Shown piece after piece: positions 26,939 to 29,385 of a stretch of DNA of 33,672 bases. The notes under the pieces are model-generated. The model worked only from the letters and a program-made list of their open reading frames with translations, was not told the origin of the DNA and searched no databases. Source of the stretch: a virus; the UHGV virus genome UHGV-2170543. One strand, written 5' to 3'. The position numbers and the translations under genes were made by a program. The number at the start of each line of letters is the position of its first letter. Positions within the stretch are counted from its first letter, which is position 1.

Positions 26939-27624
26939 ATAACCAGTATTTACAGTTTGTGCGTGAGCAGCTCATTATCGCCACCGCTGATTTGAGTGGG
27001 GCAACAAAAGGTCAGCTTGAAGCCTGGCAGGAGAATGCCATGTTCGATACAGGGCGTTACAGGCGTAAAAAAATCCGGTACCGCGATGAAGTGACCGGAA
27101 AAATGATAACGCGGGATAATCCACCAATCCCGGGAAAACAATCGCTGGCGAAGGGGACGTCAATTCCTCTGGTCAGTCAGGTTGCTTTTTCTACATCATC
27201 ATGGCGGCGGGCTGTTTTGTCTCTTGAAGAACATCATAAAGCCTGGTTGTTGTGGTGTTACAGCGGAAATACTTGCTGGGAGTATCAGATCGCGATAACG
27301 CAGTGGGCATGGACAGAATTTAAGACTCACTCTGGTACCAGGAAAATTGCAGGGAAGACACAGGAACGCCTGAAAAAATTAATCTGGCTGGCTGCACAGG
27401 ATGTCAGGAGATGGGTTATAGGACATGATATCTACCAGCAACAGGAGCTTGCCCGTCTGTGTGGGATTAAGCCTGACAACTGGAGCCACAATTATGTGAG
27501 CTACTGGCGTGAAATACTCGACATTTTTATGAACCTCGATACCGAATCTCTGATTTGCACTGTGAAAAGGAGATCTCAACAAAAAGCGGCATTTTTGCAG
27601 CGAGATATTGCAAAAGTCAATTAG
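26935..27624 (+). CDS. putative antitermination protein Q (larger Q82/QuuQ-like class), by position
   Basis: ATGA overlap with rusA stop; lies immediately upstream of a strong promoter + short-transcript terminator (pR'/tR'-like); sequence family not confirmed. Confidence 0.45.
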   Translation: MNNQYLQFVREQLIIATADLSGATKGQLEAWQENAMFDTGRYRRKKIRYRDEVTGKMITRDNPPIPGKQSLAKGTSIPLVSQVAFSTSSWRRAVLSLEEHHKAWLLWCYSGNTCWEYQIAITQWAWTEFKTHSGTRKIAGKTQERLKKLIWLAAQDVRRWVIGHDIYQQQELARLCGIKPDNWSHNYVSYWREILDIFMNLDTESLICTVKRRSQQKAAFLQRDIAKVN

Positions 27625-27636
27625 ATAGCATATATT
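27608..27636 (+). promoter_or_regulatory. candidate late promoter pR' (TTGCAA-17-TATATT)
   Basis: -35 TTGCAA at 27608-27613, 17-bp spacer, -10 TATATT at 27631-27636, overlapping the 3' end of the Q-like gene. Confidence 0.45.
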
Positions 27637-27673
27637 TTATGTAAATGTGATATATTGCTGTAAAGTGTATAAA

Positions 27674-27697
27674 CCCGCTCAAATGTGCGGGTTTTTT
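27674..27697 (+). terminator. Rho-independent terminator (tR'-like) about 40 nt downstream of promoter
   Basis: CCCGC-TCAAATGT-GCGGG followed by TTTTTT. Confidence 0.6.
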
Positions 27698-27770
27698 GCT
27701 TAACTCTGTGGACCTTTTTATCTGTAGTTGTAATATATGGATATTGTTACAATTTAGGTCGGTGAGCTTA

Positions 27771-28535
27771 ATGGAAGAACAGCACGGTAATTACTTTATA
27801 AAACGAATTCAGTTGATTGGAAGAGGGGCATTTGGCTTTGTTGAACACGTTAAGGTTTACAACCTCAATAAAGGTGAATGCGGGGATTATGCTAGAAAGG
27901 TTTTAGCACCCGAAAAACCAGAGCTTTTGGCGCAAATAGAGCAGTTTAGAAGGCGTTTTAAAAGGGAGGTTGTGTATCAATCACATTGCGTACATAGCAA
28001 TATTGTTCCTATTTATTTGTGCGATTTGTTTGTTGAGAATCCATGGTTCATTATGGATAAAGCAGAATGTGATCTTGAGCACGAAATAACGAACAACCTT
28101 CTTACAACAGATCAAAAAATTTCAATAGTGAAAATGGTATTAGATGGTGTAGCTTACATCCATGCCAAAGGCTATTTACACAGAGATATAAAACCCTTTA
28201 ATGTTTTGCGATTTAGCGACGGAACATACAAGGTGTCTGATTTTGGTCTGGTAAAAGATACGAATCCCGAAGGGGATACCACTAAATTGACCGAGATCGG
28301 TACCCGTATGGGAAGTACAAGATATATGGCTCCCGAGATTTTATATAATGCAGAGTATTCAGTTAAGACTGATGTTTATGCTGTGGGACGGTTAATTGAA
28401 GACTTAAATTTAGATGATAAAAAAATAAAGCCTATCATAGCTAAGTGCACAAGGATGGATAAAGATGATAGATATCAGACAATAGATGATGTGGCGTTTG
28501 ATTTTGCGCATTCTTTTTTAAGGAGTGAGTCATGA
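27771..28535 (+). CDS. Hanks-type Ser/Thr protein kinase (Stk-like)
   Basis: Gly-loop GRGAFGFV, YARK lysine, catalytic loop HRDIKPFN, DFG, APE motifs; start MEEQHGNYF; extended -10 TGtTACAAT at 27745-27753; AT-rich. Confidence 0.85.
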   Translation: MEEQHGNYFIKRIQLIGRGAFGFVEHVKVYNLNKGECGDYARKVLAPEKPELLAQIEQFRRRFKREVVYQSHCVHSNIVPIYLCDLFVENPWFIMDKAECDLEHEITNNLLTTDQKISIVKMVLDGVAYIHAKGYLHRDIKPFNVLRFSDGTYKVSDFGLVKDTNPEGDTTKLTEIGTRMGSTRYMAPEILYNAEYSVKTDVYAVGRLIEDLNLDDKKIKPIIAKCTRMDKDDRYQTIDDVAFDFAHSFLRSES

Positions 28536-29275
28536 TTCAGCTGATAGCGACTTCATCATTCTCGTATCCAAAAGAACCAGGTAGGGTCAACGAAGATTCA
28601 TTGCTTCCTCCAAAAATTGTAGGAGACGGCATCTTATTTGCCGTAGCTGATGGTGTAGGTTCATACTCTGGTGCCAGTTATGCTTCATCCATGGCAATCG
28701 CTGAACTTTCAGCATTGACAAGTTTATCTTTTGATGCAGTTCCGAATGTATTTGCTGAAGTTAAGCGAAAAGTTATGTCGTTAGCTGAAGTTAATGATGA
28801 GTTCGATAAAGCTGCTACTACACTTACCTTTTGTTATGTTTGTGATAGCGGAATTATTATTGGTCATATTGGTGATTGTCGCTTGTATTGCATTGGAGAA
28901 AAGAAAGCATATCAATTGACGAAGGACGATACCAGACATCAGATGTTAATTGATCAGAATATTTTTAAACCCAGAGATTTGAAGAATAAACCGGGAAAAA
29001 ATATCTTAACGACTGCCATAGCCTCAAATGTTGATATGGAATACGACTGTGATTTTATCCCGTGGAAAGATTTGCCTGGTATTAACGGGTTGTATCATCT
29101 GTGTATCATGTCTGATGGAGTTCATAACGTTTGGGAAAAACGCCCCAGATTTACATCAAATACTATGAGTAATAGTCAGAAGTTTTCTAATGGTATTTTG
29201 CGTCGTATAGAGAGAGCCGGACCTGATGATGACTTTTCTTTAGTAAGTATAATGGTGCGTGTGACGTCAGATTAG
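28532..29275 (+). CDS. PP2C-family Ser/Thr protein phosphatase
   Basis: AVADGVGS, GDCRLY, LTKDD, MSDGV acidic metal-binding blocks typical of PP2C; AGGAG RBS; ATGA overlap with kinase stop. Confidence 0.8.
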   Translation: MIQLIATSSFSYPKEPGRVNEDSLLPPKIVGDGILFAVADGVGSYSGASYASSMAIAELSALTSLSFDAVPNVFAEVKRKVMSLAEVNDEFDKAATTLTFCYVCDSGIIIGHIGDCRLYCIGEKKAYQLTKDDTRHQMLIDQNIFKPRDLKNKPGKNILTTAIASNVDMEYDCDFIPWKDLPGINGLYHLCIMSDGVHNVWEKRPRFTSNTMSNSQKFSNGILRRIERAGPDDDFSLVSIMVRVTSD

Positions 29276-29346
29276 TTGTATAAACCCAGTAGGGAATGCT
29301 AATTTCCCATACTACAGAGTAAAGAAAAACTTAATTTTAATGTGAA

Positions 29347-29371
29347 AAGGCTGCTATCAGGCGGCCTTTTT
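29347..29371 (+). terminator. hairpin terminator after phosphatase gene
   Basis: AAGGCTGC-TATCAG-GCGGCCTT (one G-U pair) followed by TTT. Confidence 0.45.
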
Positions 29372-29385
29372 ATGTCTGAAAAGCT

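What the first reader, a model, noticed from the sequence alone, without database searches (positions are those of the whole stretch)
27608..29380. Ser/Thr kinase + PP2C phosphatase operon inserted in the Q-tRNA slot of prophage segment B
Between the Q-like gene and the tRNA cluster sits an AT-rich (by eye; GC not computed) two-gene cassette. The first gene is a Hanks-type kinase with a complete catalytic motif set (GRGAFGFV, YARK, HRDIKPFN, DFG, APE). Its stop overlaps the start of a PP2C-like phosphatase (ATGA at 28532-28535), implying translational coupling. The cassette has its own extended -10 promoter, lies just downstream of a pR'/tR'-like pair, and is followed by a hairpin terminator and a 5'-truncated methyltransferase remnant, as if inserted into that gene. 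A eukaryotic-like kinase (Stk) of prophage 933W is known to exclude a superinfecting phage; a kinase hard-wired to a PP2C partner here suggests a phosphorylation-based exclusion or abortive-infection module with a built-in reset or antidote enzyme. The function is inference.
Basis: partly seen in the sequence, partly recalled or inferred. Interest (0 to 1): 0.7.

Follow-up and report, generated by a model that had tools for sequence, protein, structure and literature searches.

The report
Prophage kinase–phosphatase two-gene cassette
A prophage in this E. coli window carries a tightly coupled pair of genes, a minimal protein kinase and its matching PP2C phosphatase, which moves between phages as a unit, sits where phages keep their anti-phage genes, and has not been tested experimentally.

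Summary
Window 27771-28535 encodes a 254-aa Hanks-type Ser/Thr kinase, and 28532-29275 encodes a 247-aa PP2C phosphatase. Both have every catalytic residue, confident AlphaFold models and an ATGA stop/start overlap. The block is AT-rich (GC 0.38 against 0.51 in the flanks).

The pair is a discrete, mobile two-gene module:
- A kinase ortholog lies directly upstream of the phosphatase in 20 of 22 species-level genome loci and in 80 of 80 viral contigs.
- The two proteins co-diverge (r 0.76).
- Both are under purifying selection (dN/dS 0.04 and 0.12).
- No third gene is conserved next to them.

The module recurs in phage accessory slots: directly after cI (the rexAB / 933W-stk slot), after N, between Q and lysis, and between lysis and terminase. 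It also sits beside CBASS and Shedu.

In decayed copies the kinase is lost and the phosphatase kept (five or six cases), never the reverse. This fits a toxin/antitoxin logic.

- The methyltransferase truncation is a separate 1,182-bp backbone deletion.
- The downstream hairpin belongs to the backbone.
- The "extended -10" is not conserved.

The closest characterised system is the three-gene KKP module; this is a two-gene variant. A defence or exclusion function is the best inference but is untested.

The parts
26929..27624 (+). Late antiterminator Q (PF06323 type). From about 27400 onward its 3' part belongs to the mosaic block found only in cassette carriers.
   Evidence: Pfam E 5.6e-84. 987 E. 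coli genomes share Q up to about 27400 at roughly 88% identity, but only 47 continue beyond that point.
27608..27636 (+). pR'-like late promoter (TTGCAA, 17-nt spacer, TATATT)
   Evidence: Consensus scan, 9 of 12 matches. The region is broadly retained in the E24377A allele, where the -10 hexamer reads TACATT. This is a consensus match only.
27671..27694 (+). Intrinsic terminator (tR'-like). It is conserved together with the cassette in the 83%-identical relative.
   Evidence: 8-bp stem followed by a U-tract. dG -16.5 kcal/mol, z -4.7. Homology to L136 begins at 27662.
27695..27770 (+). Leader of 76 nt with a Shine-Dalgarno GGTGAG (27761-27766) and weak promoter-like elements: TGGACC at 27709-27714, 16-nt spacer, TAATAT at 27731-27736; and TACAAT at 27748-27753.
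   Evidence: Read directly from the sequence and compared with E24377A and L136. The TG of the proposed extended -10 is not conserved. No promoter is established.
27771..28535 (+). Minimal Hanks-type Ser/Thr protein kinase, 254 aa. It is a catalytic domain only, with a shortened C-lobe.
   Evidence: Pfam, PHROG and PADLOC matches. All catalytic residues invariant. AF2 pLDDT 89, pTM 0.86. Fold matches PknB, Stk1 and BTK. dN/dS 0.037.
28532..29275 (+). PP2C (PPM) Ser/Thr phosphatase, 247 aa. Its start overlaps the kinase stop (ATGA).
   Evidence: PF13672 match and phrog_5650 E 1.4e-64. Metal-binding Asp residues invariant. AF2 pLDDT 92.3. Fold matches Stp1, PstP and PppA with TM 0.75-0.79. dN/dS 0.12.
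29335..29381 (+). Hairpin terminator downstream of the cassette. It is backbone sequence, not cassette sequence.
   Evidence: dG -21.7 kcal/mol, z -5.1. Window 29357-29423 is homologous to the post-Q region of Stx2a phage Stx2_EH2201. Cassette homology to L136 ends at 29269.
29386..29712 (+). 3' remnant of a DNA methyltransferase, left by a 1,182-bp deletion with its junction at 29423/29426.
   Evidence: Pfam N6_N4_Mtase, profile positions 134-219 of 221. 97% identical to residues 255-347 of a 352-aa enzyme. Deletion mapped against E24377A. The same junction is present in cassette-free PhiR49_2.
29762..30011 (+). tRNA cluster: CAU (called Met here, annotated Ile in RefSeq and 933W), Arg-UCG, Arg-UCU. 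It marks the right end of the variable Q-tRNA slot.
   Evidence: ARAGORN, Rfam, RefSeq annotation.

Best explanation
The cassette is a self-contained two-gene phosphorylation module carried as accessory cargo by temperate phages.

PROPOSED MECHANISM (inferred)
- The minimal kinase is the effector. When unrestrained, it phosphorylates host and/or phage proteins on Ser/Thr and blocks growth or phage development.
- The co-translated PP2C phosphatase continuously reverses this, acting on both the kinase activation loop and its substrates. Cells carrying both genes are therefore healthy.
- Infection by a competing phage tips the balance. The likely routes are a phage protein that inhibits or titrates the phosphatase, or one that activates the kinase. 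The result is exclusion or abortive infection.
- In short, it would be a two-gene, type VII toxin-antitoxin-like counterpart of the three-gene KKP system.

WHAT IS SHOWN
- Both enzymes are catalytically complete and under purifying selection.
- They are inherited, translated and lost as a unit.
- They occupy superinfection-exclusion and defence positions.

WHAT IS INFERRED
- That the kinase is toxic.
- That the phosphatase is its antidote.
- What the trigger is.
- That the outcome is phage defence.
For: 1. Enzymes are intact.
- All Hanks motifs and all PP2C metal ligands are invariant across 31-32 homologs at 41-83% identity.
- Models are confident (pLDDT 89 and 92) and match PknB/Stk1 and PstP/Stp1.

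2. The pair is an obligate unit.
- A kinase lies directly upstream in 20 of 22 genome loci and in 80 of 80 viral loci.
- An ATGA or TAATG overlap, or a gap of 17 nt or less, is present in nearly all loci.
- Distance matrices correlate at r = 0.756, with 0 of 2000 Mantel permutations reaching that value.
- No third gene is conserved in 110 loci.
- dN/dS is 0.037 for the kinase and 0.12 for the phosphatase between the two E. coli alleles.

3. Position.
- Directly after cI and co-oriented with it in Glaesserella, Citrobacter, Ferrimonas and 9 of 58 viral loci. This is the same kind of slot as 933W stk, which lies in the cI/pM operon.
- After N in Arsenophonus and 3 viral loci.
- Beside CBASS genes (SAVED/JAB/ThiF) in Klebsiella michiganensis, and beside Shedu SduA in Pseudomonas syringae.
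- In Q-lysis and lysis-terminase slots elsewhere.

4. Decay is asymmetric.
- Kinase broken or absent with phosphatase intact: L026, L032, L134, L187/L189 and strain 510016.
- The reverse case was never seen.
- Both broken: two cases.

5. Precedent. KKP kinases are toxic, PfpC is the antitoxin, and T4 Gp59 triggers defence by binding and inhibiting the phosphatase (PMC11341870).

6. The kinase's best PADLOC matches are defence kinases: mad6 E 1.7e-40, PD-T4-6 E 1.8e-34, Stk2 E 1.6e-27.

7. The module is AT-rich relative to its flanks in almost every host, as expected for mobile cargo.
Against: - No experiment exists for this family. No paper on it was found in the searchable library.
- The PADLOC matches cover only the generic kinase domain. 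The phosphatase matches no defence model convincingly (best E 0.0035).
- Co-operonic Hanks kinase / PP2C pairs are also the norm for ordinary signalling (PknB/PstP, Stk1/Stp1; established knowledge), so pairing alone does not imply toxin-antitoxin logic.
- In this window the cassette lies behind pR' and a good terminator, and no own promoter is established. Expression may therefore be mainly late and Q-dependent rather than in the lysogen.
- The decay asymmetry rests on 5-6 cases (sign test about 0.03-0.06), and some may be related.
- About 25 of 58 viral contexts could not be classified.
- The aggregate PADLOC scan of 139 neighbours showed only methyltransferases among the top families. Apart from the CBASS and Shedu cases, defence-island enrichment is not demonstrated statistically.
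Confidence: 0.45

Rival explanations
1. Prophage life-cycle regulator. The kinase/phosphatase balance sets the phosphorylation state of a host nucleoid protein or a phage regulator, and so tunes lysogeny maintenance or induction. KKP does this through MvaU. This reading is not exclusive of defence.
For: KKP has exactly this second role (PMC11341870). The module is placed in regulatory neighbourhoods, after cI, N or Q. Its AT-rich DNA makes it a likely H-NS target (the H-NS link is inference).
Against: The same cassette also occurs outside prophages: beside IS1, a resolvase and CBASS in Klebsiella, in small integrase islets in Aeromonas, and after rpoBC in Actinobacillus. A prophage-specific regulatory role makes little sense in those places. 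No DNA-binding or sensor domain is present.
Confidence: 0.15
2. Lytic-cycle host take-over function. As the first genes downstream of pR'/tR', the pair would be made at high level after Q antitermination. It would reprogram host proteins by phosphorylation, as T7 Gp0.7 does, to the phage's own benefit. The phosphatase would limit damage or remove host phosphorylation marks.
For: The cassette lies in the late operon in E. coli, Yersinia, Cronobacter, Proteus and Providencia, and between lysis and terminase genes in Flotzy and about 14 viral loci. No own promoter is established.
Against: The same module lies in the cI operon, which is lysogen-expressed and off during lytic growth, in at least 12 loci. 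It also occurs outside phages. Only about 1% of E. coli complete genomes carry it (50 of 5426), and most related phages lack it, so it is dispensable cargo. An upstream terminator travels with the cassette, which suggests insulation from upstream transcription.
Confidence: 0.15
3. Lysogenic-conversion or host-fitness factor. The pair would modify bacterial physiology (stress tolerance, survival in a host) and not phage biology. This has been reported for the prpZ-prkY-prkX cluster of Salmonella Typhi.
For: The prpZ cluster sits on a P4-like element in SPI-10 and was reported to promote survival in macrophages (PMC6267989). The Q-tRNA slot carries virulence cargo such as stx in related phages. 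Carriers include ExPEC, APEC and ETEC strains.
Against: The family occurs in hosts with very different lifestyles: marine Photobacterium and Ferrimonas, insect symbionts, plant pseudomonads and Pasteurellaceae. This argues for a generic phage-related role and against a niche-specific one. The prpZ cluster is itself of the KKP type, which is now shown to be a defence/toxin-antitoxin system.
Confidence: 0.1
4. Pure addiction (toxin-antitoxin) module that stabilises the prophage or island, with no role in defence.
For: The decay asymmetry (kinase lost first) and translational coupling fit a toxin-antitoxin pair. The module is associated with mobile elements everywhere.
Against: Classical post-segregational killing needs an unstable antitoxin. 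Nothing suggests that a folded 247-aa PP2C is labile. Many toxin-antitoxin modules carried by prophages have turned out to be defence systems (general knowledge; PMC11341870 discussion).
Confidence: 0.1

Closest known systems
KKP (PfpC-PfkB-PfkA) kinase-kinase-phosphatase module of Pf6, P2, P4 and Mu-like prophages (Guo et al. 2024, PMC11341870). The S. Typhi prpZ-prkY-prkX cluster has the same architecture.
   Same: Both are prophage-borne. Both combine Hanks-type Ser/Thr kinase(s) with a PF13672 PP2C phosphatase in one operon. Both occur in Gram-negative hosts, on mobile elements and next to other defence genes. [quoted passage not shown]
   Different: This module has two genes, not three, and the gene order is reversed (kinase then phosphatase, not phosphatase-kinase-kinase). 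There is a single minimal 254-aa kinase with no CSD or FHA domain, and both proteins are about 250 aa against 300-430 aa in KKP. It lives mainly in lambdoid phages. KKP toxicity needs two interacting kinases, whereas here one kinase would have to suffice. No experimental data exist.
933W Stk (kinase in the cI/pM operon of Stx2 phage 933W; reported to exclude HK97 - recalled from the literature, not verified here)
   Same: Both are eukaryote-like kinases carried by a lambdoid prophage. Orthologs of the present pair occupy the equivalent position directly downstream of cI in other phages.
   Different: Only 24% identity over 215 aa. Stk is 348 aa, reads HFD where this kinase has HRD, and was described as a tyrosine kinase (title of Tyler & Friedman 2004, cited in PMC3430580). 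It has no partner phosphatase. In this window the cassette is after Q, not after cI.
Single-gene kinase defences: Stk2 of Staphylococcus and PD-T4-6 of E. coli; also the mad6 kinase component of MADS
   Same: The kinase domain matches their PADLOC models (mad6 E 1.7e-40, PD-T4-6 E 1.8e-34, Stk2 E 1.6e-27).
   Different: The matches cover only the catalytic core, for example positions 10-201 of a 327-position PD-T4-6 model. Those proteins are longer and carry extra domains, and they have no dedicated co-translated PP2C.
TerY-P triad (vWA TerY + PP2C + kinase). E. coli K-12 yegI-pphC-yegL has this make-up.
   Same: It contains both a Hanks kinase and a PP2C and has been reported as a defence system (Gao et al. 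2020, as summarised in PMC7699616).
   Different: No vWA/TerY gene accompanies this pair. There is no significant similarity to YegI (E 0.008, off-domain) or PphC (E 0.007).
Housekeeping Hanks kinase / PP2C operons (PknB-PstP, Stk1-Stp1, PpkA-PppA)
   Same: These are the closest structural matches. They share the co-operonic, often overlapping kinase/phosphatase arrangement.
   Different: Those kinases carry transmembrane, PASTA or FHA sensor modules and are core chromosomal genes. This pair has no sensor domain and is mobile, AT-rich and phage-borne.

Membership tests
Hanks-type (eukaryote-like) Ser/Thr protein kinase | Gly-rich loop, VAIK Lys, alpha-C Glu, HRDxKxxN catalytic loop, DFG, APE, subdomain XI Arg | tested here: met
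   GRGAFG, K43, E66, HRDIKPFN, DFG, APE and R234 are all invariant in 32 homologs. Pfam Pkinase E 2e-33.
Hanks-type (eukaryote-like) Ser/Thr protein kinase | Bilobal protein-kinase fold | tested here: met
   AF2 pLDDT 89. Foldseek matches PknB, Stk1 and BTK at TM about 0.72. Only about 33 residues separate D201 and R234, so the C-lobe is shortened and the alpha-G region is probably missing.
Hanks-type (eukaryote-like) Ser/Thr protein kinase | Phosphotransfer activity | not testable with these tools
   Needs an in-vitro autophosphorylation or substrate assay.
PP2C / PPM phosphatase | Conserved metal-binding Asp residues in the RxxNxD, DGxG, GD, SDG and DN/DD motifs | tested here: met
   N20, D22, D40-G41, D115, D195-G196 and D233-D234 are invariant in 31 homologs. 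PF13672 E 3.9e-14.
PP2C / PPM phosphatase | PPM beta-sandwich fold | tested here: met
   AF2 pLDDT 92.3. Foldseek matches Stp1, PstP, PppA and tPphA at TM 0.75-0.79.
KKP module | Three genes in the order phosphatase, kinase, kinase | tested here: not met
   Two genes in the order kinase then phosphatase, in 110 loci, with no conserved third gene. KKP definition taken.
KKP module | PfkA-like kinase fused to a cold-shock domain and PfkB-like kinase fused to an FHA domain | tested here: not met
   The kinase is 254 aa with Pkinase as its only Pfam domain. Homologs are 241-284 aa with kinase domains only, apart from an extra kinase-related Pfam hit in two of them.
KKP module | Located in temperate prophages or other mobile elements | tested here: met
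KKP module | Kinase toxicity neutralised by the phosphatase; defence against lytic phage | not testable with these tools
   Only indirect support: the kinase is lost first in 5-6 decayed copies.
TerY-P triad | Adjacent vWA (TerY) protein | tested here: not met
   No such ORF in the window. No conserved neighbour in 110 loci.
933W Stk-type exclusion kinase | Close sequence relationship to Stk | tested here: not met
   24% identity, with a 52-position gap in the C-lobe. 933W was not among the 30 listed phage tblastn hits; 4 further hits were not shown.
933W Stk-type exclusion kinase | Encoded in the cI (pM/pRM) operon and so expressed in the lysogen | tested here: not met
   Not met in this window, where the cassette follows Q. 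It is met for orthologous pairs in Glaesserella, Citrobacter, Ferrimonas and 9 viral loci.
PD-T4-6 / Stk2 single-gene kinase defences | Full-length match to the family model | tested here: inconclusive
   The E-values are strong but the match covers only the kinase core: positions 10-201 of 327 for PD-T4-6 and 159-348 of 500 for Stk2.
Phage moron (autonomous accessory cassette) | Differs in composition from its flanks, occurs in different slots and backbones, and is absent from close relatives | tested here: met
   GC 0.38 against 0.51. At least five kinds of slot. 987 genomes share the Q family but only about 50 carry the cassette.
Phage moron (autonomous accessory cassette) | Own promoter and terminator | tested here: inconclusive
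   An upstream terminator travels with the cassette. Only weak, partly conserved promoter-like hexamers are present. The downstream terminator is backbone sequence.

The most novel reading that the evidence does not exclude
This is the minimal form of a phosphorylation-based immune switch. A single sensor-less kinase is held off by a co-translated PP2C that acts as the guarded component: phage proteins that bind or inhibit the phosphatase release the kinase and abort infection. The module would then be a distinct two-gene defence family, about 20 clusters at 50% identity, spread through phages of Gammaproteobacteria. It would occupy the rexAB/sieB/stx-type slots and may be the ancestral core from which the three-gene KKP systems were elaborated.
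Probability: 0.3. Interest if true: 0.7.

Novelty: new variant of a known kind. Interest (0 to 1): 0.5.

Why it matters
If the pair is a working defence or exclusion system, it would be the simplest known kinase/phosphatase immune module: two small soluble enzymes with no sensor domain. That makes it a tractable model for several questions: how a reversible modification can decide cell fate during infection, what phage cue tips the balance, and which substrates matter.

The work also adds a recurrent cargo type to the Q-tRNA-stx slot of lambdoid and Stx-like prophages. Carriers identified here include APEC strain BEN2908 and the ETEC strain E24377A. The cassette could influence which phages can superinfect or be induced in these strains.

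The context survey gives a ready list of orthologs in different expression settings (cI operon, N operon, late operon, defence island) for comparative tests.

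Tried and rejected
- Near-identical DNA in sequenced phages: none found. Only protein-level relatives exist, in phage Flotzy and Cronobacter phage phiES15.
- 933W Stk, YegI and PphC as close relatives: rejected.
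- TerY-P and KKP membership: rejected on architecture.
- "Cassette inserted into the methyltransferase": rejected. E24377A has the cassette with an intact methyltransferase, and cassette-free PhiR49_2 carries the same deletion junction.
- "Extended -10" promoter: not supported by conservation or by the consensus scan.
- A conserved third gene up- or downstream: none. Only lineage-specific neighbours were found.
- Aggregate PADLOC scan of 139 neighbouring ORFs: uninformative, because the top-25 list was filled by methyltransferase models.
- Fold searches: they returned only generic kinase and PP2C folds, with no functional hint beyond family.
- Literature searches by RefSeq accession and by keywords: no study of this pair found. 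DefensePredictor and the E. coli functional-selection paper do not describe it.
- My own early error: I first took GTG 27762 as the kinase start. The correct start is ATG 27771.
- The 565-position phrog_5650 profile, which the phosphatase matches at positions 273-520, hints at fused kinase-phosphatase proteins. No fusion appeared among the best 120 phosphatase homologs listed (all about 240-260 aa). I did not follow this further.

Full report
WHAT IS IN THE SEQUENCE

Between the late antiterminator gene Q (26929-27624, PF06323, E 5.6e-84) and a three-tRNA cluster (29762-30011) lie two same-strand ORFs.

The first ORF is a protein kinase.
- Family matches: Pfam Pkinase E 2e-33 and phrog_2361 "serine-threonine kinase" E 1.7e-98.
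- Start: its real start is ATG 27771. This gives the 254-aa protein that RefSeq annotates as WP_000392435.1. A GGTGAG Shine-Dalgarno lies 4 nt upstream. The longer TTG-initiated ORF from 27696 is an artefact of ORF listing.

The second ORF (28532-29275, 247 aa) is a PP2C phosphatase. It matches PF13672 at E 3.9e-14 and phrog_5650 at E 1.4e-64. Its ATG overlaps the kinase stop as ATGA.

GC content falls to 0.33-0.42 across 27550-29350, against about 0.5 on either side.

ARE THE ENZYMES FUNCTIONAL?

Kinase.
- In an alignment of 32 kinases (43-74% identical to the query) these residues never vary: the Gly-rich loop glycines, K43, E66, H137-R138-D139, K141, N144, D157-F158-G159, E189, D201 and R234.
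- The catalytic loop HRDIKPFN is of the Ser/Thr type (established knowledge of Hanks kinases).
- The AlphaFold model is confident (pLDDT 89, pTM 0.86). Only the activation loop (163-178) is disordered. Its closest structures are PknB, Stk1 and BTK.
- The C-lobe is short. Only about 33 residues separate D201 from R234, and only one short helix lies between alpha-F and the last helix. The alpha-G region is therefore probably missing. This is a family trait whose meaning I cannot judge.

Phosphatase.
- In 31 phosphatases (41-83% identical) all PP2C metal-binding positions are invariant: N20, D22, D40-G41, D115, D195-G196, D233-D234.
- The AlphaFold model has pLDDT 92.3. Its closest structures are Stp1, PstP, PppA and tPphA, at TM 0.75-0.79.

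Selection. E. coli carries two alleles of the cassette that are 95.5% identical in DNA. Between them dN/dS is 0.037 for the kinase (19 synonymous against 3 non-synonymous changes) and 0.12 for the phosphatase (23 against 11). Both genes are being maintained.

THE PAIR IS A UNIT
- A search of one genome per species found 22 loci with a phosphatase of this family, all in Gammaproteobacteria. In 20 of them a kinase ortholog lies immediately upstream on the same strand. The exceptions are one locus without a kinase and one endosymbiont pseudogene.
- In IMG/VR, 124 viral contigs encode a relative. In all 80 retained loci the kinase is directly upstream.
- The junction is an ATGA overlap in about half the loci (14 of 28 sampled pairs). 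It is a 1-nt TAATG overlap or a gap of 17 nt or less in nearly all the rest, usually with a GGAG-like motif inside the kinase 3' end.
- Pairwise distances of kinases and phosphatases from 28 loci correlate at r = 0.756, and 0 of 2000 Mantel permutations reach this value.
- No third ORF is conserved on either side in 110 loci.
- The phosphatase family is small and discrete. Only 19 cluster representatives at 50% identity score E <= 1e-30 among 1.84 billion.
- The source names carried by the homologs found are generic.

WHERE THE MODULE LIVES

In E. coli the cassette is present in 50 of 5426 complete genomes and is always chromosomal. Wherever the surrounding genes were examined, the arrangement is DUF968-RusA-Q-[K-P]-(methyltransferase)-tRNAs-(NanS-p esterase)-holin.

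Elsewhere the same pair occurs in these positions.
- Between Q and the lysis genes: Yersinia pseudotuberculosis (three different prophage backbones, two Q families), Cronobacter phage phiES15, Proteus and Providencia.
- Between the lysis genes and terminase: phage Flotzy, Xenorhabdus and about 14 viral contigs.
- Directly downstream of, and co-oriented with, the cI-type repressor (HTH_3 + Peptidase_S24): Glaesserella parasuis, Citrobacter, Ferrimonas and 9 of 58 non-E. coli-type viral contigs.
- Directly downstream of the N antiterminator: Arsenophonus and 3 viral contigs.
- Next to an integrase at a prophage end, and in a Mu-like prophage.
- Outside prophages: next to IS1, a resolvase and CBASS genes (SAVED/JAB/ThiF) in Klebsiella michiganensis; immediately after a Shedu SduA gene in Pseudomonas syringae; and in small integrase islets.

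The cI-adjacent slot is where 933W keeps stk, inside the pM operon, and where lambda keeps rexAB (established knowledge). The region after N is where lambda keeps sieB and ral (established knowledge).

About 25 of the 58 viral contexts could not be classified with my small reference set.

The module is more AT-rich than its flanks in nearly every host.

HOW THE E. COLI LOCUS WAS BUILT

The mosaic block.
- About 987 E. coli genomes carry a Q gene roughly 88% identical up to window 27400. Only 47 continue beyond that point.
- From about 29357 onward the window is again homologous to cassette-free phages: the post-Q region of Stx2a phage Stx2_EH2201 and phage PhiR49_2.
- The block specific to carriers is therefore about 27400-29357. 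It holds the Q C-terminal part, pR', the terminator, the kinase and the phosphatase.

The portable core. Against an 83%-identical relative in another backbone (L136), homology runs from 27662 to 29269. The core is thus the upstream terminator, the 76-nt leader and the two genes.

The downstream hairpin (29335-29381) lies outside that core and inside backbone homology.

The methyltransferase.
- Strain E24377A carries the second allele as Q-[K-P]-65-aa ORF-intact 349-aa methyltransferase-tRNAs.
- Relative to it, the window has one clean 1,182-bp deletion with its junction at 29423/29426. The deletion removes the small ORF and the first 72% of the methyltransferase. What remains equals residues 255-347 of 352.
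- Cassette-free phage PhiR49_2 is colinear with the window across this same junction.
- The truncation is therefore a backbone polymorphism and not a scar of cassette insertion.

Variable cargo. The equivalent Q-tRNA slot of the other prophage segment in this same window carries an unknown 214-aa ORF plus an AraC-family regulator. 933W has only terminators and a tRNA promoter there. The slot is a variable cargo site.

EXPRESSION
- A pR'-like promoter (TTGCAA-17-TATATT, 27608-27636) and a good terminator (27671-27694) precede the cassette.
- The proposed extended -10 (TGTTACAAT, 27745-27753) loses its TG in the E24377A allele, and the region differs in L136. It would also leave only about a 10-nt leader.
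- A weak TGGACC-16-TAATAT (27709-27736) is better conserved (TAGACC...TAAGAT in L136), but it matches only 8 of 12 consensus positions (my reading).
- I therefore cannot say whether the cassette is transcribed in the lysogen at this locus. By position it should at least be strongly expressed after Q antitermination (inference from lambdoid late-operon logic).

WHAT IT MOST LIKELY DOES

The closest characterised system is KKP (PMC11341870).
- KKP is a prophage-borne PP2C plus two Hanks kinases.
- The kinases together are toxic, and the phosphatase is the antitoxin.
- T4 Gp59 triggers defence by binding and partly inhibiting the phosphatase.
- KKP also tunes Pf prophage activity through phosphorylation of MvaU.

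The present pair fails KKP membership. It has two genes, not three. The gene order is reversed. It has no CSD or FHA domains, and the proteins are about 250 aa. It could still work in the same way.

Three lines of evidence from this study point that way.
- Slots: the rexAB/stk-like and sieB-like positions, and the CBASS and Shedu neighbours.
- Coupling: obligatory co-inheritance and translational coupling.
- Decay pattern: the kinase is truncated, frameshifted or absent while the phosphatase is intact in L026, L032, L134, L187/L189 and E. coli strain 510016. The reverse was never seen. Both genes are broken in two cases. With 5-6 cases against 0, the sign test gives roughly 0.03-0.06. This is suggestive only.

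I put 0.45 on a defence or exclusion module with toxin-antitoxin logic. The rivals are prophage regulation, late-phase host take-over, host-fitness conversion and plain addiction. They are listed with their tests, and several are not mutually exclusive.

COMPARISON WITH OTHER KNOWN SYSTEMS
- 933W Stk is a remote relative: 24% identity, and it reads HFD where this kinase has HRD.
- YegI and PphC of K-12 show no meaningful similarity. They belong to a vWA-containing triad of the TerY-P type.
- The PADLOC matches to mad6, PD-T4-6 and Stk2 cover only the catalytic core.
- No paper on this two-gene family was found. The library is incomplete, so this is absence of evidence only.

VERDICT

The feature is real, well defined and under selection. 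It is a two-gene variant of a recently established kind, the prophage kinase/phosphatase modules. Interest is moderate at 0.5. A specialist would not be astonished after KKP, Stk2 and PD-T4-6. Even so, the family is compact and widespread in lambdoid phages, is simple enough to dissect, and its slot distribution makes a clear, testable prediction.

Noticed in passing
window 7411-11090 (minus strand): The sibling prophage segment has the same layout: DUF968 at 10095-11090, Q (PF06530) at 9706-10092, tRNA Met/Arg/Arg at 7411-7660 and a NanS-p-like esterase at 4957-6918. Its Q-tRNA slot, however, holds an unknown 214-aa ORF (9013-9657, no Pfam hit) and an AraC-family regulator (7689-8402). The slot is therefore a variable cargo site within one genome.
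   Followed up: partly
window 30087-30277 and 30555-30764 (+): Two copies of the sRNA family STnc100 (RF02076; 136 and 165 bits) lie between the tRNA cluster and the esterase gene. Stx phages carry stx at this position.
   Followed up: no
window about 26100-26190: A run of N (about 90 bases) interrupts the ORFs upstream of RusA, probably the DUF968 gene. It is an assembly gap or a masked stretch.
   Followed up: no
window 29762-29837: ARAGORN calls the CAU-anticodon tRNA Met. RefSeq and the 933W record annotate the homolog as tRNA-Ile (ileZ), that is, the lysidine-modified Ile2 type.
   Followed up: no
window 27771-28535 (kinase residues 201-234): The kinase family has an unusually short C-lobe. 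About 33 residues separate the subdomain IX Asp from the subdomain XI Arg, and the model has one helix fewer than canonical kinases, so the alpha-G substrate-docking helix is probably absent.
   Followed up: partly
L173-L175, L188, L190, L191 (about 5730-6225): In one subclade of viral contigs, a roughly 140-160-aa ORF with an HEAVH (HExxH metallopeptidase-like) motif directly follows the phosphatase. It could be a lineage-specific third component.
   Followed up: no
L007 11519-14741 and L021 5317-6438: Known defence genes sit beside the pair outside prophages: CBASS-type SAVED, JAB and ThiF/E1 genes in Klebsiella michiganensis, and a Shedu SduA gene immediately upstream in Pseudomonas syringae.
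   Followed up: partly
L112 (E. coli K-12 2149039-2153128): yegI (kinase), yegJ, pphC (PP2C) and yegL (vWA) form a TerY-P-like cluster in K-12. It is unrelated in sequence to the prophage pair.
   Followed up: partly
phrog_5650 profile (565 positions): The phosphatase matches only positions 273-520 of this PHROG profile. This suggests that some members are kinase-phosphatase fusions or merged gene calls. None appeared among the best 120 phosphatase homologs listed.
   Followed up: no
L194 (E. coli SY033): In one genome the cassette has been broken up by IS1 and IS3 insertions that disrupt Q, the kinase and the phosphatase. The locus can therefore be lost without obvious harm.
   Followed up: yes
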